A stretch of DNA of 64,000 nt from Octopus sinensis (Eukaryota), in NCBI RefSeq assembly GCF_006345805.1, contig NC_043000.1, positions 18,538,001-18,602,000 on the forward strand, read 5' to 3'. Positions 2,868 to 59,720 of the stretch are shown one piece after another (the first letter of the stretch is position 1; each line of letters opens with the position of its first letter). The notes beneath the pieces were generated by a model, which was given only the letters and a program-made list of their open reading frames with translations, was not told the origin of the DNA and did no database searches. Position numbers and translations under genes: made by a program.

Positions 2868-3330
2868 ACAAGATAAGGGCAGAAGAATCCGGATTCTATC
2901 ACTCTGTGAAAGTTTCTAGTTCGAATCACACGTGTCTCGAGGTGCGCAGAAGATTTTTCTATTTTTGATATATTTGGGGTACTTAAGTCTGCTCAGGACT
3001 TAGTGCTTGCTTCTTCCATGGGTATGAATAAGTATTTCATTTATATCTCGCGTGTTTGCCGCTGAAGAGGGGAAAATTTCTTGTGAATTAACCCCGAAAT
3101 TGGACCAATACGGTAATAACGAATTTTTTAGAGATTTCTATCAGTTTGTTTCGAGACGCATAAATTTAATGGTGATCGACAAATTTTTTGTTTCGGCGTA
3201 TCTGGCATTAGAATTTTTCTTCTGCCCTTATCTTGTAAATTATGTATAAATTTTACCTTTAAAGGCATTTTTTGATATGCTGGCCATTGATAAAATTTTT
3301 TTTCCGAAAAAAGTTTTATCCTATATTAAT
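2861..3330 (+). mobile_element. Penelope-like pseudo-LTR element with short inverted arm
   Basis: 2861-2886 is the reverse complement of ~3217-3243. It contains the hammerhead at 3056, and its 3' part aligns by eye to 32470-32725. It sits in (TA)n. Confidence 0.65.
3056..3116 (+). ncRNA. Type I hammerhead ribozyme
   Basis: ttgccg-CTGAAGA-GGGG...CCCC-GAAA-TTGG a CCAA-TA-cggtaa: full core, three stems, predicted cleavage after 3110. Confidence 0.85.
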
Positions 3331-3349
3331 TATATACATATATATAAAG

Positions 3350-5110
3350 ACATGCTTTTGAAGCCATCTTGGATAGAAGAATTTTGGAGCTCTGTTGTAA
3401 GGTAGGACTCTTGTTTTGGGGTCCAGTGGAGGTTGTAGTTTGCGGTAATAATTTTTTGTACAAGCAAGAAATCCTCAGTGGATTCTAAACTCTAGTCTGC
3501 CTGCAGTGGAGTGAATATTTTTTCTCAATTGTGGGAATTTTTGTTTGGAGGCGTATCCCGCTTCCAAGGTAGTGGTTCATGTTAAGTGAAAATTTTTTTC
3601 TCACTTAATTGTGAGAATTGTTGCTTGGAGGAGTATCGTGCCTCCTAAAAATTTGTTCACTTTTGTGAATTTTTAAAATAATTGTGAGAATTGCTGTATT
3701 GGAGGAGTGTCTTTGCCTCCGAAGATTGAACGACTTGTATACCAGTTTTTGTGGAAGTTGTGTTCCAGTTGTAGCGTTCCAGGTTCGACCTTGGCCGGGA
3801 GTACCTAGTGGCCAGAAGATTTTTTTGCTGTGTTTTTGAACTCTTGACTTTCTTTCTTCTAAACTTTTTTTACTTTCTTTTTTCGTGAATTGTTTTCCTT
3901 TTCTTCCTGCTGTTTTATTGTGACTTTCTTTTGATTTCTTTTTTCCTTTTTCTTCTCTCTTTTTAAGTTTTATTTTGAACTATTTTCGAACTTTTATTAC
4001 AAAAAAAAACCCCCAAAAAAACATGGCAATGAAAAAAGACAATATTTTGGAGTGGGAAATTATACCACCCAAACTGGTTGAAAGACCGCAAAGAGAGGAC
4101 GGTGGTGTTGAGGACTTACTCCAAGTCGCTTGATACCATCGCCCTTTATGAAAAGACTGTAATTGAAAAGGAGTTGGCAGAGTATCTACCAACTATTAAA
4201 TTCATTTCCAGTGGGATCAAATACGCAACGGTGTGGTTGCTATTTGGCACCCCTGAAGAGGCTCGCAAATTTGCGAGCCAGCCCTTAGAGGGCAAAGAAA
4301 TTTTGTTTCTTCCCACGTATTGTGGGAAGAGGTTGACAAGAGCTTGGGTCAGCGGGTTTCCACCTGGGATAAAACCCGAGTGGATAGAGATTATCTGCTG
4401 GGGTCTGGGTGGCAGCGGAGCCAAGCTCCTTAATGTGAAAGTTTTTCCTGCAGTTGATTGGGTTGGGTCAAAAGCTTGTTTTGACCCTTTGGACCCAATT
4501 AGCCAATCTGGTTTTTCCAGATTTTTTGAAGATGGCCGGGTGCAGGTACCCGGTGATTCTTGAGGGTCGTCCACCCCCAGGTGTCATCGGTGCCTGGAGC
4601 CTGACCATATAAAGAAAAACTGTGCCGTCAACGGTAGAATTGGATATCACGCCCCCGGAGGAAGACGAATTATTGGTCTTCTTCTATAGAAGCAGAGAGG
4701 TAGAAAAGGTGGTGGAAATGCACCATAAGGGAGCACTTTTAGCCTGCACACAGGATCCCGAATAGCCTCCGCAGATAGCTGTGGAGGTCATAATGTTGCC
4801 CATGTTGAATAGGCTGAAAGTACTCAATGCGGAATATCGCTTGTACGCGGGTGATGCCGACACGGCACTCGCTTTGATCTTGAATGAGGCGTGGATGATG
4901 GCGGAGTATGTGGGCACAAGCGATGTTGAGGAGGAATAGTGATAAGAAGTTGAAAAGCCTCAGCGTTATTGAAAGTTCCGAGTTTGGAAAGAAAAGTAAG
5001 AGGCTTAGCACCTCATTTTGTTATTGAATATTGTGAACAGTGTAGAGTTTTGTTGCCTCATGAAAAATATACAAGAGATCAATGTTCTCGGAAAAAAATC
5101 GATCGGCGGG
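3350..5110 (+). mobile_element. 5' part of a Tx1/L1-like non-LTR retrotransposon: repetitive 5'UTR plus degraded gag-like ORF1 (from ATG ~4023)
   Basis: A CCHC knuckle CHRCLEPDHIKKNC is encoded at ~4582-4623. The ORF is frameshifted. Three ~75-bp diverged tandem units (aattgtg(g/a)gaatt...ggagg) lie at ~3527-3722. Confidence 0.6.
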
Positions 5111-16530: not shown

Positions 16531-16613
16531 ATCTCTGAAGAGCACATGGTTACATAATCGGACTGTTACCTAACACTCCGTTGAACCCCTAGTGCGAAAT
16601 CGATTGGTAAGAT
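16531..16613 (+). ncRNA. Type I hammerhead ribozyme with extended stem II
   Basis: atct-CTGAAGA-GCAC...GTGC-GAAA-TCGATTGG-TA-agat; GUA cleavage triplet, predicted cut after 16609. Confidence 0.75.
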
Positions 16614-25196: not shown

Positions 25197-26605
25197 GTCA
25201 TCAAGGCGGCGAACTGGTAGAATTGTTAGCACACTGGACAAAATGCTTAATGGCGTTTCGTCTGTCTTTCCCTTCTGAGTTCAAATTCCACCGAGGGTAA
25301 CTTCACATTCATTCTTTCGAGGTCGATGAAATAAGGACCACTCAAGTACTGGGGTTGATGAAATCGACTAGTCTCTGCCCCCATTTCCCCCAAAATTTCA
25401 TGCTTTGTGCTTATAATAGAAAGGATTATAATTGACGGTCGTGAGTGAACGGGCGTGAGTAAGTGATAGCGCGTCGAAATAAATGCCTAAAGTTTCTTAA
25501 ATTCAAATAATATTGGATGCCAAGTTTGGCATTAATTCCTTTTTGGCGGGAGAATCGGAGGTTTGTGTGGATATCAAGATTCCCTCACTGTTCCTAAACA
25601 AGATATTTAACTCTCACTGCTTTGACCAAAGCAAATGAAACGAGCATGCACAGCTAATCGTTTCATGCAAATAGAAAAAAAATCAGTATGATTGGTGTCT
25701 TTTTGGGAACTAGTGCTCAGATTCACCTTGGTCTCTAGAAGACAACTACAAACAGTTTTGTTATATCCTTTCCAAGAATCCTAAAAATAATTTAGGTTTA
25801 TGTAGAATTACTGCCAATTTCCTGTAATCTGTTATAATGTTCCAGCAAGTGTTGTTTTTCTAAGCTGTCCTAAAAGAAACATTTAATTTATTTTTAACTA
25901 GCTAAAAAGCCACACTCCATACAGACTTTTAAGCTAGCTCTTGCGGAGAACTAATTGCGCCTGCGACTCAAAACTAAAGACAGCTAAATGACATTCACTA
26001 TAATACGTCTATAATGACTACATGGTGGTGTTTAATCAGAGGTTATGGATAGATGAGAATTAATTCAGTAATGTAATCATTCTATTCTCCCAGCCCCAAG
26101 TTGAATTCCAACTGTTGGTCAGTTAATCCCAAAGTTCTTATTACGACGTAAAATTAACGAAGCAAATGTCATTTATTTCTCCCTTGATCTGTGACGTCAT
26201 TTGACAAATGCTAACCAAGATGGCGGGAATCATCCAAGCTTTACATGCTAGTAATAGCAACCCAAATGCTTTTAAATCAGATCCCAATGCTAGATGTTCA
26301 AGAACCAAATGAAGGACCGATTTTCAATTCCGGGATCATCCTGATTCCAAAAAGGTATATGTTTATGTAGAGCAAATGTAGAATGAACTACAAGGGTCCC
26401 AGATGGACAGACAGAATTACATTTTTATCATTATAGATTTTATTTTTCAATTTAAATGCCTGTTGGGAATGTTAAATGTTAAATAATCTGTGTTTTATTA
26501 TGCAAAATTTTATTCTTATCTTAAACATTGTAGTACAATTAATAATTATATACAGACATCAACTGTTTATATTGTTTATTTATTTTTAAATAAAACTTTT
26601 TGCAG

Positions 26606-29600
26606 AGAGTCCCAGAAGCTTATAACTTTGAACAATTCAAAGGCATTGACTGGTCAGAACAATCAGCTACGTCTTCCGATGAATTGCGAAGGATAGTAAG
26701 AGATGACTCAGTAGAACTTCTTAAAGAATACCTGGAAAATAAGTCAGATTCTCTGAAACAACGTGCCTTGCAATATGCTATGGAAGATAACCAAATCGAA
26801 ACAATCAAGTGTCTAATTGAATATTTAGATGAATATATCTTGCTTAAGAAATATGACCTAGTTAGAAATGAAGGAATTATTGAGAAAAGTTTATTACAAT
26901 ATATAACTGAATCAAACGATAAAGATATGGCAAAATGTTTCTTAGACAAATTCCCAAAGGAAAAACGTCCGGAAATCATTCTACAAGAAATTCTTATGAA
27001 TATTCCAGGGAAATCATTCCGAACAGCAACATGTTACCATTTAGCTGCTTATTTAGGCTTTAGTGAATTAACAAATTTCTATAAATCGCAGGGAATTACC
27101 GTGGATAGTAAAACTTTGATGGAAGAAACTGCGTTAATGTGGGCGACACGGGGTGATCAAAAGTTACTAATTCAAGAGCTTATAAGAATGGGTGCTTGCC
27201 CATTTTTAAAAAACGTTAATGGGTGTACAGCACTTCGTTGGGCAGTACGTTATGGATACATTGAATGTGTCAACATTCTTTTAGGACATTTTACAAATGA
27301 ACATAAATCAGATTTAATATCATCTCTTAATCTTGCATCAGCTTTCGGCTACAGTCAAATCGTTGAATCGATAATTGCCTCATCTCTGATTGATGTGAAC
27401 ACCCCTGACTGCTACCAGCAATATCCTATTCATTATGCAGCGAATAAAGGTAACGAAGATGTCTTACAACTTTTAATCCAGAATAAGGCAGACCTTAATG
27501 TAACAAATGCAAAAGGCGATACAGCTTTGTTTTTGGCAATACAAAATGATCAGATGCATATAGTTCGGATGCTGATAGAATTTGGTTGTGAAGTCTATCT
27601 CAAGAATATGGAAGGCAAGGATATTTGGTCCTTTGCACTACTTAAGAGAGATAAAGCCTGTTTTCAAGGTCTCATACATATTATTACGGAAAAAATTATT
27701 AATGGAAGCACCGAGTTGGAGATGCTATTTAACACTCGATCACCTGTGTTTGAAATTGCAAAAAATGGAGATTTAAGTGGACTAGAGATTTTAGAAGAAC
27801 GTAAATTAGATATGAAAATAAAAGATGAGGATGGTAATACAATACTGCATATTGCCGCTCAAGGAAAGCATCATGCAATCGTGGACCGTTTTAAGGACCC
27901 AAATTTCCTTAATGAACAAAATAATAATGAGGAAACCGCGCTTCATTTAGCTGTTTCGACTGGAAGTTTTGAAACAATAAATGCGTTTCTTAAATTAGGA
28001 GCAAAAGCTAATATTAAAAATTGCAATGGGGAAACAATTTTGCATATTGCTGCAAAATCTAAAAACACTTCTGCTGAAGTCATGAGGCTTTTAGTTAATT
28101 ACGTGATGAACAGACATTCTTGGGATAATTTAAATGATACTGATAAGGAAGGAAGAAATGCCCTTCATGTGGCTGCACTATATAGCTCACCAGGCGTTAT
28201 TTGGGAATGCCGTATTTTGAACTGTAATACATCTGATATAAATGGTGATACCCCATATCATCTAGCTATTCGTGCAAAGCAACCAGAAATCTTTCAGAAG
28301 ATGCTTGATATTTATGAGTTTAAAATGAACAAAGCAGACCTCAACAAAAGGAATAATGAAGGAGAAACTGTAGTTTTTAAAGCCATTGAAAATAGTTTTT
28401 TATGTTGCTTTGAAAGGTTACTTCAACACAATATTGATTTAACATTAAAGTACAAAGAGAAAGAAAATACTGTCCTCCATCATTTAGTTAAAATTTGCAT
28501 CAAAAACAGTGAATGTCTCGAATTTTTCGACGTACTTCATGATCATTTTACTTCTAAAAATAACTTGAAATTTTCTTCCAAAGATTTCAGAAAATTAATT
28601 TTTGAAGTGAAGAACAAAAAACAGTTATGTGTGTTTAGTTTGGCTTTCATAAAATGTGCTAAAGACATTATAGAAAAACTGATGACACTAAAATATGTAA
28701 CGCAGTTTGATATAGGCGAACGTAAGTATTTTGATGTGACACAAATCCTGTTAAACCATGATATGTATTTCAAAAGCATTAAAAGAAACTCTGATACAAG
28801 TATGCCTTCTAATAGCGCCTTTGAAATATTTCTTAATATGGAAACTAAGCCAGCGCTTGGGGAACTTTTCACTATCTTACCATTAAAACATATTGCAGAG
28901 GTATACGAAAAAATGAATCATGATCTGTGTATCGTGGCAATGGCAGTGCATTTTTCACATATGATCTTATTGACTTATACTGCCAATTGCCTGGTGAAAT
29001 ATAGAATAGATGAAGCAGAGAACATTAACTTAAACCCTATAATTATTTGTAGCTTATGTGAACCAGTTGTAATCCTAATTTTCTGTCTGATATCTTCGTT
29101 CCGTTCTACCTGCAATTATTTAGGATATCAAGGACGTGATGAGGAGCCTGAAGAAGATGATAAAAATCATCATCAAAACAATATGATATGCTCATCGGCA
29201 GACAAAAATTCTTTTCGATATAAATTAAAAAAATTGAGAAAATATGTAAAAAAAAAATTTGCATTAACAACAATAATGTCCATTTATTCAGTACTTTCTA
29301 TCGCATGGATTATTCAGCTATGGACAAATGATCCAGACTACTACTTTTGTTTAGGTGTAGTTTTATGCTATGGTTGGCTTCTTGGCATAACTTTTATACG
29401 AGGTTTTAAACCATTGCATTACTTTTGGCGTGTGCTATCAGAAATGATTGAAAGGGACATTCTCAGGTTTTTTGGCATGTACGCGTGCGTTTTATTAGCT
29501 TTTTCGCTTTTATTTCATATCTGGTTAAATGGTTCCGGTAAAATTAAGGACGACAGCCCTTGGTTAACAATCTTTGCACTGTTTAATCTATTGTTAGGAA

Positions 29601-29962
29601 TGGAAGAAATATTTGAATATAATTTGAAAGATGCCCTGAATGAAGTCAGTTTACTGACTGACCTTTACAAAGTATTATATTGCTTATATTTTATAACAGG
29701 CGTCATTATTTTTATAAATCTTCTGACGGCAATGTTAAATGATACTTATTCAGTTATTAAATCAAGAAACGAACTTAACTGGCAAATAGATTCAATCAAA
29801 CAAGCCATTCGAGTTGAGAAGATTCTTCCTTGCGTAAGATCATTCTTCTATACTAGAAAGATTAAAAGAATGAAATGTCTTGATAATGAGGACGATTCGA
29901 TTAAATATTACGCTATTTTATCATTTAACAAAAACAAAAACAAACAATCAAAAATGAAATAA
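26606..29962 (+). CDS. Transient receptor potential cation channel: TRPV-type TM/pore region with ~16-18 N-terminal ankyrin repeats (main exon)
   Basis: 1118 open codons after the acceptor tttttgcag. Many ankyrin motifs (TALMWA, TALRWA, YPIHYAA, TILHIAA, TALHLAV, NTVLHHLV), six hydrophobic segments, and TRPV-like FIRGF...MIERDILRFF, pore LFNLLLGMEE and S6/TRP box NLLTAMLNDTY...NWQ. Confidence 0.93.
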   Translation, partial: RVPEAYNFEQFKGIDWSEQSATSSDELRRIVRDDSVELLKEYLENKSDSLKQRALQYAMEDNQIETIKCLIEYLDEYILLKKYDLVRNEGIIEKSLLQYITESNDKDMAKCFLDKFPKEKRPEIILQEILMNIPGKSFRTATCYHLAAYLGFSELTNFYKSQGITVDSKTLMEETALMWATRGDQKLLIQELIRMGACPFLKNVNGCTALRWAVRYGYIECVNILLGHFTNEHKSDLISSLNLASAFGYSQIVESIIASSLIDVNTPDCYQQYPIHYAANKGNEDVLQLLIQNKADLNVTNAKGDTALFLAIQNDQMHIVRMLIEFGCEVYLKNMEGKDIWSFALLKRDKACFQGLIHIITEKIINGSTELEMLFNTRSPVFEIAKNGDLSGLEILEERKLDMKIKDEDGNTILHIAAQGKHHAIVDRFKDPNFLNEQNNNEETALHLAVSTGSFETINAFLKLGAKANIKNCNGETILHIAAKSKNTSAEVMRLLVNYVMNRHSWDNLNDTDKEGRNALHVAALYSSPGVIWECRILNCNTSDINGDTPYHLAIRAKQPEIFQKMLDIYEFKMNKADLNKRNNEGETVVFKAIENSFLCCFERLLQHNIDLTLKYKEKENTVLHHLVKICIKNSECLEFFDVLHDHFTSKNNLKFSSKDFRKLIFEVKNKKQLCVFSLAFIKCAKDIIEKLMTLKYVTQFDIGERKYFDVTQILLNHDMYFKSIKRNSDTSMPSNSAFEIFLNMETKPALGELFTILPLKHIAEVYEKMNHDLCIVAMAVHFSHMILLTYTANCLVKYRIDEAENINLNPIIICSLCEPVVILIFCLISSFRSTCNYLGYQGRDEEPEEDDKNHHQNNMICSSADKNSFRYKLKKLRKYVKKKFALTTIMSIYSVLSIAWIIQLWTNDPDYYFCLGVVLCYGWLLGITFIRGFKPLHYFWRVLSEMIERDILRFFGMYACVLLAFSLLFHIWLNGSGKIKDDSPWLTIFALFNLLLGMEEIFEYNLKDALNEVSLLTDLYKVLYCLYFITGVIIFINLLTAMLNDTYSVIKSRNELNWQIDSIKQAIRVEKILPCVRSFFYTRKIKRMKCLDNEDDSIKYYAILSFNKNKNKQSKMK

Positions 29963-45090: not shown

Positions 45091-45713
45091 TCAGATATCC
45101 AGCCCATCCATTTGGTCAAAATGCATGTTAACATGCACTTCAAAATCCTTTTGAGATACATGTTGAAAGTTTTTGTCACATACAGGACATTTACGGTGTG
45201 AGTCTCTTGTTTCACCTTGGGAGGAACATTTAGCAATATGCTCTTGGAATTTAACCATTTCTAAACAATGAAAGCTTCTTGAACAATAAGGACAAATAAT
45301 ATTCTCATCTTCGGTCCTCTTTGTAGGGTTTTCAAAAGGAAGGTTATATGCTGCCTCTGCCACAGAAGAATTTTGAGGAGAATGAGTTGTAGATTCATAC
45401 AGAAAAGTTTTGTTTAAATCTGTAAGTTTATCAACAGTTTTTGGCTTCTGATGCAAGTCAATCACTTTTTGAGGATTATGTAGAGTTTGAAATGGGTCTC
45501 TCTTGAAATCCTGCCAGCTAGGATCATTATCATCGTCATCATCATCCTCATCCTGAACTATTTCAGCTGAAGGCTCCACAGAATAAGGATAACAAGGTTT
45601 AAAATGCTCACTTGGGTTTAAGATATCAAGTTCATTATGTTCTAGTTGTTTTCTTGGATGTGATGAGGTGGATAATGTTGCAATCACATTGGAAGGATTT
45701 CTATGCAGACGGA
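45091..45713 (-). CDS. Last coding exon of the AZI2/TBKBP1-like TBK1 adaptor; two UBZ-type zinc fingers
   Basis: Acceptor ctaatctttcag| in phase 1; acidic DEDDDDDND tract; CPYC...HIAKC and CPVC...HVNMHF; TGA at 45091-45093; AATAAA on minus at 44914-44919. Confidence 0.85.
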
Positions 45714-46821
45714 CTGAAAGATTAGTAAAGTAAAAAAATCACAATTAATTTACATCCTAGAAATATTGATAGAGAGATGTAGTAAAAAAGTAAAATATAG
45801 AGACAACAAATTCTCACATATAACATGAGGCAATTAAAAAAAAACAAACAAGGCTAAACGTTTTTCCAGAGAGATATTCAGGAAAAGTTAAGAAATATGA
45901 ATTGAAGAAATGACAATGTAGACAAGACACTGGTAGATGAGAAAAGGTATTGTATGAAGAAGATGATGTACAAAAAAAACAAAAACAAAACAAAACAAAA
46001 AAAAAACCAACAAAAAACCCCCAAAAACTAGACAATTCATGATAGATGGCCAGTGAAGGTCGTGGGCACTGTGTCCTTTATCTCTCTATATATAAATGGT
46101 AAAACGTCTGTCTGTGTGTGTGTCCTTTATATAAATCCACAATTTTTCAGTTAGAGGGCTCACACTTTCTATGGTCATTCAAAACCGTCCAAGGGTGGTC
46201 GTACACATCTTTACATTTCCCCAGTCACCCCGCAAAGCTATTAAAAAAAATCAATAGAAGTTACTTTTTTGTGAATTTTCTATCCAAAACCCAATCAAAA
46301 TGCCTGAAATTTGATACGCCAATTGAATGCCAGCAAGCTGTATGTGATTGGTCAGAGATTTGGACAGTACTCGCGTGTATGTGCGCACGCACGAAGCTGT
46401 CCTAACTAAACCATTTGAGGAAGATAAGAAATTATGACTACAATACAGTTATTAATACATGAATTCAAATACTAGGAATAATAGTGACAATGTGTCATGA
46501 ATTGAATATGTTTGAGCAACAATATTATCTCATGTGCAGGCCTAACCTGTGTAAAACATGATATACTTCATTTCAACTGTTTCGCTTGATTAAATTTTTC
46601 ACTGTTGTGAAACACCAGTCTTCAATTGTTTGTGAACAGACTGGGTAACAAAGTAATTGCAACATATCTTGACAGCTGTTCTGCATCTATCCAGTCAAAG
46701 ATTTTACAGCAGAACGTTACAGTATTGAGACAGAGCAGGAAGAAGTTCAGTATATTTGGAGTATAAGACATGTAGGCTGCCACTGCTTAATGTTCAAGTG
46801 ATGAACTTCAAACCATAGATG

Positions 46822-50483: not shown

Positions 50484-50576
50484 TTTTCCTAACTTCCATT
50501 TGATGAATTTCAACTATCTTCTCTAAAAACTGAATGTTTTCCATCAACTTGTCAAGACTTTCCATGCTGCCAATTT
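50484..50576 (-). CDS. Internal 93-nt exon of the AZI2/TBKBP1-like gene; candidate TBK1-binding helix
   Basis: Strong acceptor tttctttctctttacag| and donor |GTATGT; phase 1-1; encodes EIGSMESLDKLMENIQFLEKIVEIHQMEVRK. Confidence 0.75.
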
Positions 50577-51211
50577 CTGTAAAGAGAAAGAAAAAACGAA
50601 AAAACAAATACAAACAAAAAAACAAGCCAGAAATGTTTATATTAATATCTCTCTTTTAAAAAATTTTTTACTACTACTACTACTACTACAATTATTACTA
50701 TTATTATTATTATTAAGGTATGCATAAGGTCTTCACAAGTAGAGTTTTGTGTTCCAAGAAGGAAAGGTATGCATAAGTGGACTGGCTACATCCCGTGTAG
50801 AGACCATAACCCATGGCCTCGTCTGGCACCTGTGCCGGTGGCACATAAAAAGCACCCACTACACTCACGGAGTGGTTGGCGTTAGGAAGGGCATCCAGCT
50901 GTAGAAACATTGCCAGATCAGACTGGGCCTGGTGCAGCCTTCTGGCTTCCCAGACCCCAGTTGAACCGTCCAACCCATGCTAGCATGGAAAGCGGACGCT
51001 AAACAATGATGAAGGTGGCAAAGCTGGCAGAATCGTTAGCATGCTGGGCGAAATGCTTAGTGGTATTTCGCCTGTCACTAAGTTCTGAGTTCAACTTTGC
51101 CTTTCATCCTTTTGGGGTCAACTAAATAAGTACCAGTTAAGCACTGGGGTTGATGTAATTGACTTAATCCCTTCTACCCAAATATGAGGCCTTGTGCTTC
51201 TAGTAGAAAGG

Positions 51212-51255
<44 letters not shown>

Positions 51256-51374
51256 CATCAGCATCATCATTATTCAGGCCTTGTGCCAATAGTAGAAAGG
51301 GTTATGATTATTACGATTATTATTATTATGAGATATTGGAGTGTAATTTCTAATCATTTGAGCACTGCTAAGTG

Positions 51375-52856
51375 TTCTCATCTGCTACAGATGAGTGGTT
51401 AGTGAGAGCTGTACAAGTCATGTACAGGGATGCTGTCAGTAATGTGAGGGTTGGTAATGAGTACAGTGAAGAATTCCGGGTAGGAGTAGGGCTCCACCAA
51501 GGATCAGTCCTCAGCCCCCTCTTATTTATCATAGTCCTTTAGGCAATAACAGAGGAATTCAAGACAGGGTTCCCCTGGGAGCTTCTCTATGCTGATGACC
51601 TTGCTCTAAAAGTGGAGTCACAATCAGAACTAGAGAAGTTTCAGGTGTGCAAGCAAGGTCTAGAATCGAAGGGCCTTAGAGTCAATCTAGCAAAAACCAA
51701 AGTCTTAATAAGTAGGAAAGCAGATAAACCACAAATCCCTTCAGGTAGATGGCCCTCATCAATCTGTAGAAAAGGTGTAGGTAGAAACTCCATAAGATGT
51801 AAGCAATGGATACATAAGAGAGGTGCAGCAATATCAAAGGAAAGCTAACAGGGAAGATCGATTTTGTGTGTGTCAAATACTCAGGTGCAATGAACACTGA
51901 AATTGTGCAGAAAACAGTCGCTGTCACATTCCTGGGGGTAAAACTACAAGTAGTTGATAGCTTCTGTTACCTAGGTGACCAAGTCAGCAGCAGGGGTGGT
52001 TGCTCTTAGAATGTAGCTGCTAGAATAAGAATAACCTGGGCAAAGTTCAGAGAGCTCCTACCTCGGCTGGTGACAAAGGGCCTCTCACTCAGAGTAAAAG
52101 GTAGACTGTATGATGCATGTGTGTGAACAGCCATGCTACATGGCAGTGAAAAATGGGCCATGACTGCTGAGGACATGCATAAGCTTGCAAGGAATGAAGC
52201 TAGCATGCTCTGCTGGATGTGTAATGTCAGTGTGCATACTCGACAGAGTGTAAGTGTCCTGAGAGAAAAGTTAGACATAAGAAGCATCAGATGTGGTGTG
52301 CAACAGAGATGACAGTGCTGGTATGGTCATGTGTTGCGTATAGATGAGGACAGCTGGGTGAAAAAGTGTCACACCCTTGCAGTTGAAGGAACCTGTGGAA
52401 GAGGTAGACCCAAGAAGACCTGGGATGAGGTGGTGAAGTACGACCTTCAAACGTTGGGCTTCACCAAGGTGATGACAAGTGACCAGGACCTTTGGAGATA
52501 TGCTGTGCTTGAGAAGACTGTAACTGTAGCCTATGCCAGTGCAACATAACAAGCCCATTTAAGAGCACCCTTCAATCATTGGGCAATAAACTGCACTTGT
52601 GAAGACCTGTTGAGGCAAATGAAGTCGTCATGGTTGATGACAGTACCACCTGATTGGCACCTGTGCTGGTGGCATGTAAAAAGCACCCACTACACTCTTG
52701 GAGTGGTTGGTGTTAAGAAGAGAATCCAGCTGTAGAAACTTTTCCAGATTGGATTGGAACCTGGTGCAGTCTTCTGGCTCGCTAGCCCTCAGTCAAACCA
52801 TCCAACCCATGCCAGCATGGAAAATAGACGTTAAATGATAATGATGATGATGATGA
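51375..52856 (+). mobile_element. RTE LINE: degraded RT plus 3'UTR
   Basis: GLHQGSVLSPLLF; ELLYADDL; KGLRVNLAKTK; multiple stops; (GAT)n tail. Confidence 0.92.
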
Positions 52857-53489
52857 ATACTAATCTGCTAAGTCATGTGCCTGGTGTACCCTTATCAGGT
52901 GAATAGTCATGATGGGTGCATTGGGCTTTATATATTTGTGTCCCAGTGTCACTTTGATGGCATGAGCTGCTCTCTCACTCAATAATAATATTAACAAAAA
53001 CAAGATACTATAACCAAAGGCGTTTCTTACTGAAGTTTTTGAGACAGTATATCTAAGACTGTATGTATTATCTAATGTGTCTTTCTTTCTTTTTTTTAAA
53101 ACCTCTGCATTGGATTTTATGTTTACAGCAATAAGGACTGAGAGGACAAACTTAGTACTGGACACTGCTGTGTCCAGTGCTGGTAGCTGTGTGGCACCTA
53201 GAACAACTGCCTTGTGTTGACTTATAGCTTGTGAATGGGATTTATGAAATAGTACTGCAGAAACCAATAGGTCAGAGTGAATTTGTAATTCAAAGAGCCA
53301 ACCAAACTGTGGAATAATTAGCCACTTACAAATTCAGAATCTAGAAAGTCCAGTTGATCAACCAAACAGAGTACTCATTGTCAAAACTGACAAGAAATCC
53401 ATATACTAAATAAAATGTTCAATTTGTGGCTGGCAGTCTTACAGAAACTTCTTCTGAAGGAGACCAGTGGCATCAGAGGAGCTTCCATA

Positions 53490-53915
53490 GGAAGTATGCA
53501 TCAGTCCTCTCCATACTCCTCTATGGAGCAAAGATGCAACACCTCTTGAAGACCTTGGCAAAGTGGCTCAATGGCTTAAATAGCAGAGCCTTGAGAACCA
53601 TTGAAAACATCAGAAGGTGCCATTACGTTTCCAACAAAGAATTGCGTGCACACAGGTTTCAATCTGTTTCAATCTGTAGCCTCCCATTGCATGCACTGGT
53701 ATGGACATGTCTTCCATCTCCTGCTAGATCACCATACCAGTGATATATTCTCATTCGATGGAGCAGCTGTGCGCTGGAAGAGACCTTGTGGAAGGCCCTG
53801 CACTAGCTGGCTGGATGTGATTAAGGAAGATCTCCAGAGACTCGACACCACTCTGTAAGGTGCACAGGGGCTGGGATGGGACTGCCAGCGATGGAGAGCA
53901 GTAGTGGACCTAGCT
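53490..53915 (+). mobile_element. Old RTE-like LINE C-terminal fragment
   Basis: VLSILLYGA...WYGHV...RPCGRPCTSWLDVIKEDL. Confidence 0.7.
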
Positions 53916-54118
53916 TGCAATTCTTTTGAGCAAATCTAATCTTAAAGGAAAAGGGGAAAAAAATTAACAACTCTAAAATTCAAAAATACATGATGCTATA
54001 TACTATTTATTAGCTGTGACGCTATGTGATACAAAGCACTTATCAAATTTAAAGAAATTAGGCATGAAACTTTAGGACCTTAAGTCACTTATGTAGCTTT
54101 ACAACAAATAATAATATA

Positions 54119-54259
54119 TAAGGTTGTCCCAAAAGTTCGTAGAAAGTCTTGGAAAATAATGGTCTTTATTTTGAGGAATAATTTTTGTTGTTTTTGTTAG
54201 TACTTGGCGAGTAAAAATTCAATTTTCGCAAGTGTTTATGAACTTTTGGGACAACCTAA
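54119..54259. mobile_element. mariner-type MITE
   Basis: TA|TAAGGTTGTCCCAAAAGTTC...GAACTTTTGGGACAACCTAA|TA. Confidence 0.85.
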
Positions 54260-54901
54260 TATATCATCATTATCATTTTAACACACACACACATATGTTT
54301 TTTGTTGTATTTTTCCTTTGTTTTTCTTTTTTGATCAACTATTTACTGTATGCGCACATGGACCCCTGGCCTTCCAACTGATTTTGGAGTACTTAATTCG
54401 CAGAATTCTTTCTACCATCAGATTACATTACCTTGTTTATTCGGAATATGCCATTTCTGCACCTTGATTGTGATTCATATCATCATCATCATCATCATCG
54501 TTTAACGTCCGTTTTCCGCGCTAGCACGGGTTGGATGGTTTGACCGGGGTCTGGGAAGCCAGGGGCCGCTCCAGGCTCCAGTCTGATCTGGCAGAGTTTC
54601 TACGGCTGGATGCCCTTCCTAACACCAACCACTCCGTGAGTGTAGTGGGTGCTTTTTACGTGCCACCTGCACAGGGGCCGGGGTCCGGCATCGGTCACGA
54701 TCGGTTCGAGCTTTTAACGTGCCAGCCAAGGCGGCGCAGGCAACGTTCGGATGGTCTTACCAGCACAGAGGCCAGTCGGGGCAGCGCTGGCATCGGCCAC
54801 GTTCGGATAGTACTTTTTGTGTGCCACCGGCACAGGCATCATATATATATATATATATATCAAGAACAATCTTACTTAGAAATGGATGCGTGCGTTCCGT
54901 C

Positions 54902-55238
54902 ATATAATAAATTAATAAATAAATAAAACATATGCATATATACATACATATATGTACGTACCTACCTCTACATGTATATATACACGCATATATGGGTACA
55001 GGACACCAAAAAAACGTCGAACACAATGAGGAACGTAAACATGAACACAAAACCAAGGAACTGGACATTTTTCTTAAACAACGAAAAAATAGAGCACAGG
55101 ACAAATAACACAAGGAAAATTCCCCTTCGTTTTTTTGGTGTCCTGTACCCATATATGCATGTATATATACATGTAGAGGTAGGTACGTACACATATGTAT
55201 GTATATATGCATATGTTTTATTTATTAATTTATTATAT
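54902..55238. repeat. Inverted repeat (~110-bp arms), probable Penelope-like fold-back remnant
   Basis: ~54902-55016 is the reverse complement of ~55128-55238; flanked by (TA)n. Confidence 0.75.
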
Positions 55239-55264
55239 ATATATATATATATATATATACATAC

Positions 55265-55296
<32 letters not shown>

Positions 55297-55340
55297 GAAT
55301 AAATAAGTGGAGTTTAACGCAGGTGTAATCAAATATTTTT

Positions 55341-55426
55341 ACTTTCGACACATGTTTCGAAAATTCCACTGATACTATTCAAAAGAATAAATGGTATAAA
55401 CAATGCAATCTTCTCCTCAGGAAAGT
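55341..55426 (-). ncRNA. Type I hammerhead ribozyme (GUC site)
   Basis: Minus strand: actttc-CTGAGGA-GAAGATT...AATTTTC-GAAA-CATGTG-TC-gaaagt; stem I extends to ~10 bp. Confidence 0.85.
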
Positions 55427-55689
55427 GAAAAAAGCGAAACTCGTCAATAAGACATTTTAGCAAAAAATGATGGATTTGTATAGCGATTGACAGAACGCTA
55501 TTAATATTGTTTAAAAAAACGTTATCTGATATAACGTCATAAGTAGCTAACAGAAAGAGTAGGGATACCAATAGTGAATACTTATATGCACTAAATGTAT
55601 GTTTACTTGTGAGATTTTTGCTACCCTGGTAACTATTTATTTATTTTTTCTGTGTTAATTGTTAACAAGGTAAAAATACACTCATCTAT

Positions 55690-55749
<60 letters not shown>

Positions 55750-55809
55750 TTTTAAAATATAAATATATGAAAGAATGGAGTTGAACGACGAATTAACAAA
55801 ATTCCTTTA

Positions 55810-55892
55810 TTTCCGACATATGTTTCGAAGGCTGCATATTCCTAATTGCAAAGGAATAAGGAGTATATTATGCTGCTTTCTCATCAGGAAAA
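55810..55892 (-). ncRNA. Type I hammerhead ribozyme (left arm, GUC site)
   Basis: Minus strand: ttttc-CTGATGA-GAAAGCAGCATA...TATGCAGCCTTC-GAAA-CATATG-TC-ggaaa. Confidence 0.85.
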
Positions 55893-55962
55893 GCAACTGG
55901 CAAAAACACACCTTTCAATCATATGAATAATGATATGATTGAAAGGTGTTTTTGCCAGTTGC

Positions 55963-56045
55963 TTTTCCTGATGAGAAAGCGGCATAATGTACTCCTTATT
56001 CCTTCGCAATTAGGAATATGCAGCCTTCGAAACATATGTCGAAAA
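55963..56045 (+). ncRNA. Type I hammerhead ribozyme (right arm, GUC site)
   Basis: ttttc-CTGATGA-GAAAGCGGCATA...TATGCAGCCTTC-GAAA-CATATG-TC-gaaaa; predicted cut after 56040. Confidence 0.85.
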
Positions 56046-56230
56046 TAAAGGAATTTTGTTAATTCGTCGTTCAACTCCATTCTTTCATATATTTATATTT
56101 TTAAAAATAACATACAAATTTCCACATGAAAGCACGTAACTTCAAATGTGTCTTCTCTGATGTGAATTTGCTACCCAGGTATCGGTTAACCGAATTATCC
56201 ATAACAAGATAATTCATTCTACTACTCAAA

Positions 56231-57418
56231 TCATCATCATCATCATCGTTTAACGTCCGCTTTCCATGCTAGCATGGGTTGGACGGTTCAACTGGGGTCT
56301 GGCAAGCTCGAAGGCTGCACCAGGCCAGTCAGATCTGGCAGTGTTTCTACAGCTGGATGCCCTTCCTAACGCCAACCACTCCGAGAGTGTACTGGGTGAT
56401 TTTATGTGCCACCGATACAGGTGCCAGGCGAGGCTGGCAGACGGCCACGCTCGGATGGTGTTTTTATGTGCCACCGACACAGGTGCCAGACGAGGCTGGC
56501 GAACGGCCACGCTCGGATGGTGTTTGTTACGTGCCCTCAGCACGGAGGCCAGTCGATGCGGTACTGGCTACGGTCACGCTTGGATGGTTTTCTTATGTGC
56601 CAGCGGCACTGGTACCACAAGGATACAAATTCCATTGATGTTCATCTATTTTGATTTGGTTTGATTTGATTTGATTTGATTTGATTTGATTGATTTTCAC
56701 TTGCCTCAACAGGTCTTCACAAGTGTCACAAGAAGGAAGGTATGCACAGGTGGACTGACTACGTCCCAGGTAGGTGCCACGGGTTATGGCTTCACTTGTC
56801 TTGCCGGGTCTTCTCACGCACAGCATACTTCCATAGGTCTCGGTCTCTAGTCATTTCCATGGTGAGACCTAACGTTCGAAGGTCGTGCTTCACCATCTTG
56901 TCCCAGGTTTTCCTGGGTCTACCTCTTCCACGGGCTCCCTCAACTGCTAGGGATTGGCACTTTCTCACACACCTATCTTCATCCATTCTCGCCACATGAC
57001 CATACCAGCGCAATCGTCTCTCTTGCACACCACAACTGATGCTTCTTAGGTACAACATTTCTCTCAAGGTACTAATGCTCTGTCGAGTATGTACACTGAC
57101 ATTACACATCCATCGGAGCATACTGGCTTCATTCCTCATGAGCTTACGCATGTCCTCAGCAGTCATGGCCCATGTTTCACTGCCATGTAGCATGGCTGTT
57201 CGTACACATGCATCATACAGTCTGCCTTTTACTCTGAGCGAGAGGCCTTTAGTCACCAGCAGAGGTAAGAGCTCCCTAAACTTTGCCCAGGCTATTCTTA
57301 TTCTAGCAGTTACACTTTCAGCGCACCCACCCCCACTACTGACTTGGTCACCTAGATAACGGAAGCTATCAACTACTTCTAGTTTTTCCCCCTGGAAAGT
57401 GACGGAAGTTGTTTTCTG
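56231..57418 (-). mobile_element. Young 5'-truncated RTE LINE (open C-terminal ORF plus 3'UTR)
   Basis: EVVDSFRYLGD...LYDACVRTAMLHGSETW...RLRWYGHV...GRGRPRKTW, uninterrupted; (GAT)n tail. Confidence 0.93.
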
Positions 57419-57591
57419 ATATATATATATATATATACGTACAGACATACACAACCACTTTACTTTATGTTTTGAGTGGTTCTTCTGCAGTCAGTAAAAC
57501 CAAACCTATGACAGTTATGTCCCTTAGATAGAAAAATGCTTGCAAAATGCCTGTCCAATGCAGAGGAGAAAAACGTAAAATATCTACTAAC

Positions 57592-58036
57592 CTTTACTAG
57601 TAAGAGAAGTATTAGGAGTTGTTTCCACACTATGGCTTTGCAGTTGTGATCTGAGTCTCTGATTTTTAGTCTTCTCAGCTGCTAATTCCTTTTTCAGTTT
57701 ACTGACTGCTTTGTGTAGCGTGTCGACTTCACTTCTGCGCTTCATTTCATCAGGATTATCAGAAGGCAAACCTTTCATTTGCTTCATCCCTCGTTCATCG
57801 ACAAGCTTCAATAAATCTTGATATCTTGTATTGAGTTCGTTATACTTCTTCTTCAGTTCTTCGTACGCATCTTTTAGAGCAGACATAGAGGTTATACCAA
57901 GGGATGAAGTAAGATTTTGTCGTGATGCTGACAGAGTAAAGGTGATATTTGGACTTGCGGCAGCAGCATCAGAAACATCATCTTCGTTTGGTATTATACT
58001 AATATCATCATCTTGGCACACATTGTAACTGCTCAT
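57592..58036 (-). CDS. First coding exon of the AZI2 (NAP1)/TBKBP1 (SINTBAD)-like TBK1 adaptor; coiled coil
   Basis: Acceptor tttttccag|cata ATG. N-terminal DDDISII and ALKDAYEELKKK resemble AZI2 EDDICIL/ALVTAYEDIKKR and TBKBP1 EDDISIL (recalled sequences). Donor G|GTTAGT in phase 1. Confidence 0.8.
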
Positions 58037-58067: not shown

Positions 58068-58457
58068 TCTTTTACTCTTTACTCTTTTACTTGTTTCAGT
58101 CATTTGACTGCGGCCATGCTGGAGCACCGCCTTTAATTGAACAACTCGACCCCGGGACTTATTCTTTTGTAAGCCCAGTACTTATTCTATCGGTCTCTTT
58201 TGCCGAACCATTAAGTAACGGGGACGTAAACACACCAGCATCGGTTGTCAAGCAATGCTAGGGGGACAAACACAGACACACAAACATACACATACATATA
58301 TACGACGGGCTTCTTTCAGTTTCCGTCTACCAAATCCACTCACAAGGCATTGGTCGGCCCGGGGCTATAGCAGAAGACACTTGCCCAAGGTGCCATGCAG
58401 TGGGACTGAACCTGGAACCATGTGGTTGGTTAGCAAGCTACTTACCACACAGCCACT
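58068..58457 (-). mobile_element. SINE family A, just upstream of the splice acceptor
   Basis: Reverse complement of 18422-18820. Confidence 0.9.
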
Positions 58458-58891
58458 ACATACATATATATAATATTTTATAAGCTTAAAGCTTATAAGC
58501 AATCACTATGCAATGACTAAAGAAAATAGTTTAATATTGGAGAATATAAGACCTTGATGGAAAAAAGTAAGGTTCACTTTCTATGCAAACGAGAACCCTA
58601 CTTTTTTTCCATCAGCACTAGTGTTGCAAATATTATCGAACATTTACACTCAATGTATTAGCTTAGCTTGTTTGCCAGTAGGCTGCAGTTTGACATGGTG
58701 GAGATGACTCTCTCAAAGCACTGGGTGTTAAAAGACATAAAAGACGTAGACAGGTGTGACAACTCACCCCAAATCCCATTCAGGAGTGATGGACAATGTT
58801 GAAACATCAATGTCCAGCGTTGAAAATGGCTGGTATAGTGAACTAAGGGCTATAGTGAAAGCAAAGGATAACTAGTTTGAATTGTAAATAT

Positions 58892-59279
58892 AGGCATAGG
58901 AGTGGCTGTGTGGTAAGTAGCTTGCTTACGAACCACATGGTTCTGGGTTCAGTCCCACTGTGTGGCATCTTGGGCAAGTGTCTTCTACTATAGCCTCGGG
59001 CCGACCAAAGCCTTGTGAGTGGATTTGGTAGACGGAAACTGAAAGAAGCCCGTTGTATATATGTATGTGTGTGTATAAGTTTGTGTGTCTGTGTTTGTCT
59101 CCTCAACATTGCTTGACAACCGATGGTGTGTTTACGTCCCCGTAACTTAGTGGTTCGGCAAAAGAGACCAATAGAATACGTACTAGGCTTACAAAGAATA
59201 AGTCCTGGGGTTGATTTGCTCGACTAAAGGCGGTGCTCCAGCATGGCCGCAGTCAAATGACTGAAACAAGTAAAAGAGT
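58892..59279 (+). mobile_element. SINE family A
   Basis: Matches 18422-18820. Confidence 0.9.
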
Positions 59280-59720
59280 ATGTGTAAAATATTGTCAATA
59301 TATAACAACCTGTAAATTCTCATTAACCTCACCTGTTTCCAAGGAAACCAATTTCCCCCCATGATCAGATGTGGCTTTTTTTCCATAGAAGATTGCCAAT
59401 GAACAACACCAATTGTATGATGGTGATATTTGTTTACAACCATCATGTGATGTTAAGACAAGGAAACACACACACACACAATGGTCTTCTTTCACATAAT
59501 GTTCACATTAAAGTAAACATTTTCTTTTAATTCATATATTAAACAAGCAAATGCAGTTTTCTTCAGTTTGAAATACATACAGTATGTTATTTTATTATTT
59601 TGCCGAGGCATAGCAATACTAAGAACCTGGTGTTAGAACTCAACATATATATGGTTCATAGCAGTAATAAGAAATAGAATAAATGACTAGGGAATAAGAA
59701 ATTATGTTATGAATTTCATT

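What the first reader, a model, noticed from the sequence alone, without database searches (positions are those of the whole stretch)
55749..56106. Young, near-perfect fold-back with an intact GUC hammerhead on each strand
Seen: ~175-bp arms with a ~8-nt spacer, each arm carrying a canonical core with CATATG stem III, in divergent orientation. A transcript from either strand contains one ribozyme plus its full antisense copy. Established: PLE insertions often have inverted pseudo-LTRs. Inference: the cassette could act as a folding-order switch. The antisense arm is transcribed first, so read-through RNA should lock the ribozyme in dsRNA (an ADAR or Dicer substrate), while RNA initiated at the centre would be free to cleave.
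Basis: partly seen in the sequence, partly recalled or inferred. Interest (0 to 1): 0.75.

Follow-up and report, generated by a model that had tools for sequence, protein, structure and literature searches.

The report
Back-to-back stub of a Penelope retrotransposon
This mirror-image stretch is real but is one of many back-to-back stubs left by a Penelope-type jumping gene, with ribozymes that are clipped and predicted not to fold well, so it is likely an insertion by-product, probably made from two DNA copies started at the two cut ends of the target, rather than a regulatory switch.

Summary
The palindrome is real: arms 55749-55924 and 55933-56109, 172 of 179 columns identical, 8-nt loop, one intact type I hammerhead core per strand. 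It is the 3' end (pseudo-LTR) of a Hydra-like Penelope retrotransposon with at least 1,569 copies of the motif in this genome. 50 of 79 sampled loci are inverted, and this one is older than most (rank 39 of 45). The right arm runs on to the element's tail (56230). The centre is the last 12 codons of the element's ORF, not a promoter. Both arms have lost the family's promoter-like module and the outer strand of ribozyme stem I. Helix III is the dimer-requiring type, and each strand has one copy. The switch idea is therefore not supported, although read-through dsRNA is likely (the stub lies in an intron). In 46 of 48 inverted loci one arm ends at each of two fixed sites, and 24 of 50 have non-nested arms, which points to two-ended (twin) priming. 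I found no paper proposing this for these elements, but this scan reached the same reading before on other DNA. No reads span the locus.

The parts
55691..55748 (.). (TA)n(CA)n(TA)n microsatellite at the left junction, the likely insertion target; no target-site duplication seen
   Evidence: sequence
55749..55896 (-). Left arm: inverted pLTR piece, element positions 3552 to 3397 (numbering of L031:3151-6845); ends at fixed site A, no tail
55815..55887 (-). Left hammerhead core (cut site predicted after 55815 on the minus strand); U-G wobble in stem I; outer stem I strand missing
55897..55934 (+). Last codons of the element ORF in sense (WQKHTFQSYE**), element positions about 2768-2805; includes the 8-nt loop 55925-55932
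55933..55958 (-). Inverted second copy of the ORF end with a 2-nt deletion; its junction to the pLTR is unique in the genome
55959..56230 (+). Right arm: pLTR 3' part in sense, element positions 3397-3690, with the tail (about 56108-56230) ending at fixed site B
55968..56040 (+). Right hammerhead core (cut site predicted after 56040); 5-bp stem I, long stem II with an A-C mismatch at pair 4, 2-bp palindromic helix III; outer stem I strand missing
57593..58036 (-). First coding exon of the host gene (coiled-coil adaptor with C-terminal zinc fingers, P0003); the stub lies about 1.4 kb into the following intron
50485..50577 (-). Second coding exon of the host gene, closing the intron that holds the stub
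45094..45714 (-). Last coding exon of the host gene (zinc fingers, Pfam PF18112)

Best explanation
The palindrome is a short, head-to-head insertion of the ribozyme-bearing 3' end of a Hydra-like Penelope retrotransposon, likely built in one landing event from two DNA copies primed at the two cut target strands, and it likely has no regulatory role of its own. Shown: family identity, boundaries, copy number, two fixed end sites, the ORF-end centre, the clipped stem I, the intronic position. Inferred, family level: the element protein would nick both strands of a (TA)n target; one nick would prime reverse transcription at site B (tail end, position about 3692) and the other at site A (about 3552); each copy would stop on its own, often at the RNA 5' end (about 3325), and the two would be joined head to head by 0-3 nt of microhomology. 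Inferred, this locus: the site-A copy stopped at 3397, annealed to the end of a longer site-B copy at about 2768, was extended 38 nt, snapped back on a 2-nt match, recopied its own junction and rejoined the right arm, replacing about 590 nt of spacer with a 26-nt mirror piece. The same switch could have happened later in DNA. In host pre-mRNA the arms would pair into a 175-bp hairpin, an incidental ADAR or Dicer substrate.
For: Family: 1,704 candidates; 1,569 exact 21-mer matches, 0 for the reversed control; parent element with RT and GIY-YIG-type ORF and pLTR in L031. Among the first 100 matches on contig C1, 19 of 21 close pairs are divergent and 13 lie under 400 bp apart. Of the 79 loci these 100 matches form, 50 are inverted, 28 single (15 end at A, 13 at B), 1 direct tandem; 46 of 50 have one A end and one B end, 2 are A+A, 0 B+B, 2 other (output, recounted by hand after dropping spurious CA-repeat hits; 46 of 48, p = 4e-12). 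24 of 50 have arms of which neither contains the other, 14 of them with a B arm made only of tail sequence that the A arm lacks. 26 of 125 inner ends fall at 3323-3340, just below a TATA-like box; in 6 loci (L059, L070, L073, L076, L097, L127) the A arm reaches this point while the B arm is short. By eye, the two arms of a locus carry the same subfamily alleles; 9 of 45 share locus-private alleles. The Anolis PAc protein nicks and extends both strands, starts at two sites that define the tail, and is predicted to be a dimer (PMC11167929). At this locus the loop is in register with the left, tail-less arm and the junction occurs nowhere else even with 2 mismatches.
Against: Genomic anatomy only; no biochemistry. 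One-sided deletions at the apex of perfect palindromes could also give non-nested arms. The earlier-noted signal of A-to-G changes shared by both arms was not seen here (0 of 11 shared private alleles). The sample is conditioned on one exact 21-mer and one contig, and duplicates (L086/L087, L112-L114) were not collapsed. The snap-back at the centre rests on a 2-nt microhomology and one locus; only 2 of 50 sampled loci have comparable three-piece centres (L083, L104). No contig bridges the centre in 7 runs laid. Expression of the host gene and editing of the hairpin were not observed.
Confidence: 0.7

Rival explanations
1. Single-copy self-priming: one cDNA (or an antisense RNA, as proposed in PMC3846280) folds back and copies itself; the endonuclease trims the second arm at site A, and later apex deletions make arms unequal.
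For: 20 of 50 inverted loci are nested with the tail arm longer; arms share subfamily and private alleles; PMC8557442 passages ascribe the one-sided tail to endonuclease resolution.
Against: 24 of 50 non-nested, 14 with tail-only B arms; 15 single copies end at site A with no B arm; 6 loci where the A arm runs to the RNA 5' end beside a short B arm; PAc shows both tail ends are RT start sites.
Confidence: 0.2
2. Centre made by second-generation retroposition: an RNA read backwards through an already inverted source copy carried the ORF-end/pLTR junction, and two cDNAs ran off its 5' end 8 nt apart.
For: Both arms carry the same odd junction and stop 8 nt apart, like run-off pairs at the promoter that stop 1-10 nt apart.
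Against: No source copy with this junction in the assembly at up to 2 mismatches.
Confidence: 0.25
3. One reading: read-through RNA locks the ribozyme, centre-initiated RNA cleaves.
For: Cores intact; intronic position gives read-through with the antisense arm first; hairpin dominates the fold.
Against: No promoter module at the centre; stem I clipped, hammerhead fold 11.6-12.8 kcal/mol uphill; dimer-type helix III, monomer +2.4 against intermolecular duplex -7.0 kcal/mol; a single minimal PLE hammerhead from Schistosoma showed no cleavage (PMC4209133); the PAc ribozyme needed protein and was dispensable for insertion in vitro; the same intron holds at least 5 other inverted repeat pairs of about 190-610 nt.
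Confidence: 0.04
4. Assembly or chimeric-read artefact.
For: No contig of 7 runs bridges either junction or the centre (the tool states that a hole proves nothing).
Against: Arms differ at 7 columns, two of them CpG-type transitions; each arm ends exactly at one of the family's two termini and does not duplicate flank; 50 of 79 loci have the same build.
Confidence: 0.04

Closest known systems
Endonuclease-positive Penelope-like elements with inverted pLTR and one-sided tail (PMC3846280 passages; PMC8557442 passages)
   Same: 5'-truncated copy with an adjacent inverted pLTR, tail on one arm only, palindromic junction, TATA and Inr-like motifs in the pLTR, asparagine-rich linker inserts in the ORF
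   Different: Tail is about 140 nt here rather than 30-40; this copy has an extra mirrored ORF-end piece at the centre; the data favour two-ended priming rather than the self-priming proposed there
Hydra clade of PLEs, incl. Hydra-1_Obim (PMC8557442 section 11, supplement search hits and part 2 of 59)
   Same: DKT motif, C-terminal GIY-YIG domain with CxxC and CxH instead of CCHH, hammerhead in the 3' repeat, (TA)n targets; RT resembles the printed Hydra alignments by eye
   Different: RWL/RWV instead of RWK; no CxCx5C linker motif (Asn-rich stretch instead); unit 3.57 kb; different hammerhead sequence from Hydra-1_Obim, so a separate family
PLE type I hammerheads with small palindromic helix III (PMC4209133, parts 1-2 of 4 read)
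   Same: Core residues, G10.1-C11.1 pair, palindromic helix III; that paper already reports pairs of minimal hammerheads 100-700 bp apart on opposite strands in Schistosoma
   Different: Very long stem II (54 nt) and, in native copies, an outer stem I of 9 bp plus about 8 more that this copy has lost
L1 twin priming (recalled from memory, not read here)
   Same: Two primers from opposite target strands give an inverted 5' segment joined by microhomology
   Different: Here both start sites are fixed in the RNA and the two copies often overlap, giving palindromes

Membership tests
EN+ Penelope-like element | Single ORF with RT and C-terminal GIY-YIG endonuclease in the parent | tested here: met
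   L031 ORF in two frames (582 + 310 aa) with YRDD and TIYQC...FYIGA motifs; 35% identity over 477 aa to an unnamed 937-aa relative. Pfam gave no RT or GIY-YIG hit. None of 7 long copies checked has an unbroken ORF.
EN+ Penelope-like element | pLTR with hammerhead; partial tandems; inverted 5' copy; tail on one end | tested here: met
EN+ Penelope-like element | Spliceosomal intron in the 5' region | not tested
   no RNA reads available
Hydra clade | DKT motif | tested here: met
   SDKTR in L031 and L103
Hydra clade | No CCHH; CxxC and CxH flanking conserved E and N | tested here: met
   CDICYSE...LINT...RCMH in L031
Hydra clade | RWK motif | tested here: inconclusive
   IRWLA in L031, IRWVA in L103; RW kept, K not
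Hydra clade | Linker CxCx5C motif | tested here: not met
   Absent in L031, L092, L093, L128; present in relatives P0005-P0007. Hence filed as Hydra-like, not as a member.
Hydra clade | Insertion into (TA)n | tested here: met
   flanks
Hydra clade | Short length (generally under 3 kb) | tested here: not met
   unit about 3.57 kb in L031
Hydra clade | Placement in the RT tree | not tested
   reference proteins were only readable in the supplement
Type I hammerhead ribozyme | Core residues CUGANGA, GAAA, UH | tested here: met
   both arms
Type I hammerhead ribozyme | Stems I and II supported by covariation in the family | tested here: met
   10 chosen copies: 13 of 38 pairs with two-sided changes, 0 of 500 shuffles reach this; slid controls give 4-10. 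Related sequences and a structure drawn from one of them inflate this.
Type I hammerhead ribozyme | Stable fold of this copy as a monomer | tested here: not met
   predicted 11.6 and 12.8 kcal/mol above the best fold; 2-bp helix III
Type I hammerhead ribozyme | Self-cleavage | not testable with these tools
   needs in vitro transcription
Non-LTR retrozyme | Non-coding tandem repeats of a ribozyme-bearing monomer | tested here: not met
   head-to-head, derived from a coding element; 1 of 79 loci is a short direct tandem
MITE or fold-back DNA transposon | Many copies of the same palindrome with TIRs and a TSD | tested here: not met
   junction unique; centres differ between loci; no TSD seen

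The most novel reading that the evidence does not exclude
The inverted pseudo-LTRs of Penelope-like elements are made by two-ended priming: each cut target strand starts a cDNA at one of two fixed RNA sites, and the copies are joined head to head. This family records it statistically (46 of 48 A+B, 24 of 50 non-nested), and this stub may even be a second-generation product copied from an RNA read backwards through an already inverted copy.
Probability: 0.6. Interest if true: 0.6.

Novelty: new member of a known kind. Interest (0 to 1): 0.33.

Why it matters
The locus itself is ordinary. The family anatomy bears on an open question: PMC8557442 names the origin of tandem and inverted PLE structures as unresolved and PMC3846280 left self-priming as a hypothesis. 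Two fixed ends plus non-nested arms give a prediction that the existing PAc in vitro system could test directly. A few hundred such near-perfect hairpins (about 200 by extrapolating 13 per 100 matches), some intronic as here, would also be natural long-dsRNA substrates in an animal known for heavy A-to-I editing (recalled), but that is a genome-wide by-product, not a property of this site.

Tried and rejected
Rfam scan: no match at gathering score. Pfam on the parent ORF: no RT or GIY-YIG hit. Run search: no RNA holder listed. Contigs of X1, X2, X3, X5 and X1, X4, X6, X10 laid on the stub: only family-type pieces, none bridging the junctions or centre; uninformative, and presence/absence polymorphism, editing and small RNAs could not be tested. 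Sigma-70 promoter scan: chance level and not relevant to an animal. Idea that the arms came from two different source RNAs: not supported, arms share subfamily alleles. ADAR imprint at birth: 0 of 11 shared private alleles are A>G; the two A>G differences in this stub lie on opposite strands. Centre as captured host DNA or a splice junction: rejected, it is ORF end. First energy run forced lone outer pairs and overstated the gap (19-21 kcal/mol); one search replaces it. Search for a source copy: none. Literature searches for twin priming in PLEs found no such proposal; the library lacks most subscription papers, and supplements of PMC11167929, PMC4209133, PMC3846280 and the bioRxiv preprint were not seen. 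Sequence look-up in earlier scan notes: nothing.

Full report
Observation. The arms (55749-55924, 55933-56109) match at 172 of 179 columns, with 4 substitutions, a 2-nt gap and a 1-nt gap, round an 8-nt loop. Each strand has one complete type I core, at 55968-56040 (+) and 55887-55815 (-), in divergent orientation. The hairpin is far beyond chance (z = -38.7, 0 of 100 shuffles). Rfam has no match at gathering score.

What it is. The arm has 1,704 candidate matches in G000, and a 21-mer across the core occurs exactly 1,569 times, with 0 for the reversed control. [quoted passage not shown] Pfam does not recognise it. Against the Hydra-clade description (PMC8557442, section 11; supplement hits and part 2 of 59) it has DKT, CxxC and CxH, a hammerhead and (TA)n targets, but RWL/RWV for RWK, no linker CxCx5C and a 3.57-kb unit. 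I call it Hydra-like. Its hammerhead differs from that listed for Hydra-1_Obim, so it is another family. None of 7 long copies checked has an unbroken ORF.

Anatomy of this copy, numbered on L031:3151-6845. On the + strand it reads: antisense pLTR 3552 to 3397; sense ORF end 2768-2805 (WQKHTFQSYE**); antisense ORF end about 2797-2768 with a 2-nt deletion; sense pLTR 3397-3690. The 'spacer' is the ORF's last codon and stop codons. The ORF-end/pLTR junction occurs only in these two arms, also at 2 mismatches. The left flank is a (TA)/(CA) microsatellite, the right flank the (CAT)n end of a common repeat; I see no target-site duplication.

Context. Both flanking frames belong to one predicted 386-aa protein, P0003, which a source labels as an octopus protein. 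Its coding exons map to 58036-57593, 50577-50485 and 45714-45094. The stub is therefore in the 7-kb intron after the first coding exon of a minus-strand gene for a coiled-coil, zinc-finger adaptor (PF18112; likeness to AZI2/TBKBP1/TANK is recalled, not tested). That intron holds at least 5 other inverted pairs.

How common. Of the first 100 exact matches on C1, 21 neighbouring pairs lie within 7 kb: 19 divergent, 1 tandem, 1 convergent; 13 divergent pairs are under 400 bp apart, against 205 bp here. I fetched all 79 loci these matches form and mapped them on the parent. The script called 15 'complex', mostly through spurious CA-repeat hits at 2955-3123; I reclassified those by hand. Result: 50 inverted, 28 single (15 end at site A near 3552, 13 at site B near 3692), 1 direct tandem. 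Duplicates L086/L087 and L112-L114 were not collapsed. In 45 two-armed loci (from this sample plus the loci picked by similarity) the arms differ by a median of 1.6%; this locus differs by 3.1% over 131 sites and ranks 39th. With the calibration quoted in PMC13282606 passages (JC 0.09 = 25 My), 4 substitutions give about 3 My (0.9-8).

The ribozymes. In native copies a 9-bp outer stem I plus about 8 further pairs clamp the motif, and the hammerhead fold lies 2.2-6.7 kcal/mol above the best fold in 20 of 21 copies (10.9 in one). Both arms here start at 3397 and lack that strand; the gap is 11.6 and 12.8. Helix III is the 8-nt palindrome ACAUAUGU: +2.4 kcal/mol as a 2-bp hairpin, -7.0 as an intermolecular duplex. 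Stems show two-sided changes among 10 chosen copies (13 of 38 pairs; 0 of 500 shuffles; slid controls 4-10), which supports the fold for the family with the caveats that tool states. PMC4209133 (parts 1-2 of 4 read) reports that such ribozymes need dimers, that a single minimal motif did not cleave, and that opposite-strand pairs 100-700 bp apart occur in Schistosoma. PMC11167929 (parts 1-2 of 4 and passages) found the PAc ribozyme inactive without protein and dispensable for insertion. Both arms here read through the cut site, so their templates were uncut.

The switch idea. Its first half is physically right: on the host's strand the antisense arm comes first, and forcing the hammerhead in the full + strand costs about 155 kcal/mol. 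Its second half lacks a basis. The family's promoter-like module (TGACGTCA, TATAAA at 3297, CTCATT at 3322; labels recalled) lies upstream of 3397 and is missing here, and 26 of 125 inner ends pile up just below it, which marks it as the likely start site. A freed arm would still be clipped and without a partner.

How it likely arose. Of 50 inverted loci, 46 have one A end and one B end, 2 A+A, none B+B, 2 other (46 of 48, p = 4e-12). In 24 neither arm contains the other (2 more are borderline), and 14 have a B arm of tail sequence only; 20 are nested. A single cDNA copying itself cannot give non-nested arms without later deletion. PAc nicks and extends both strands and starts at two sites that delimit the tail. 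Two-ended priming joins these facts. PMC3846280 (passages) proposed self-priming on an antisense template and left it open; PMC8557442 (passages) lists the question as unresolved. Searches found no paper proposing twin priming for these elements; L1 twin priming is recalled. I noted this reading before seeing that the scan had reached it on other genomes and on another family in this one; those notes are not independent support. One lead from them, shared A-to-G changes, was not reproduced (0 of 11). At this locus the loop is in register with the tail-less arm, so the extra turn was likely made by the strand growing from the left: a normal inversion junction, 38 nt of extension, a snap-back on 2 nt, and return to the right arm. 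Retroposition from an inverted source copy fits as well but no source was found.

Limits. No listed run is on record as RNA, and no contig in 7 runs bridges the centre; these blanks are not evidence either way. Artefact is unlikely because the arms have diverged and end at the family's two termini. Cleavage, editing, small RNAs and polymorphism are untested. The bioRxiv preprint 10.64898/2026.07.22.740005 was seen as passages only; other papers only as listings.

Verdict. Observation confirmed; interpretation partly supported. A new family member of a known kind of structure; locus ordinary; the family-level mechanism is the part worth testing. Interest 0.33.

Noticed in passing
window 55289-55448 (-): Older relative of the same pLTR with a hammerhead core (CUGAGGA, helix III ACAUGUGU) and a compensatory C-G pair in stem I, 468 bp from the left arm and on the same strand as its ribozyme.
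   Followed up: partly
window 26594-29962 (+): 1,122-aa stop-free frame with ankyrin repeats and an ion-transport domain, a TRPA-like channel apparently in one exon.
   Followed up: no
window 3062-3110 (+), 16535-16609 (+), 35085-35021 (-), 32366-32319 (-): Four more hammerhead-like cores with 4-7 bp stem I from other repeat families.
   Followed up: no
window 54902-55242: A second fold-back (115-nt arms, 94%, 111-nt spacer) of another multi-copy repeat, matching 4 fetched loci; no hammerhead core found.
   Followed up: partly
window 58080-59280: Inverted pair of a very common 400-nt repeat (hits in 53 fetched loci), 443 nt apart, just upstream of the host gene's first coding exon.
   Followed up: partly
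window 50578-57592: The host intron holds a 611-nt, 84% inverted pair and four of about 190-200 nt, so it would be rich in dsRNA apart from this stub.
   Followed up: partly
L031:3298-5948: The parent ORF lacks the Hydra linker cysteine motif and has Asn-rich stretches there, like the N-rich inserts described for rotifer Penelopes (PMC3846280 passages).
   Followed up: partly
L081:1010-2379: A whole fold-back is duplicated in tandem, putting two hammerheads on each strand 838 nt apart, a layout that could allow a cis dimer.
   Followed up: no
L031 element positions 3283-3325: pLTR has a TGACGTCA motif, a TATAAA box and a CTCATT motif in promoter-like spacing (labels CRE, TATA, Inr recalled); 26 of 125 copy ends map just below it.
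   Followed up: partly
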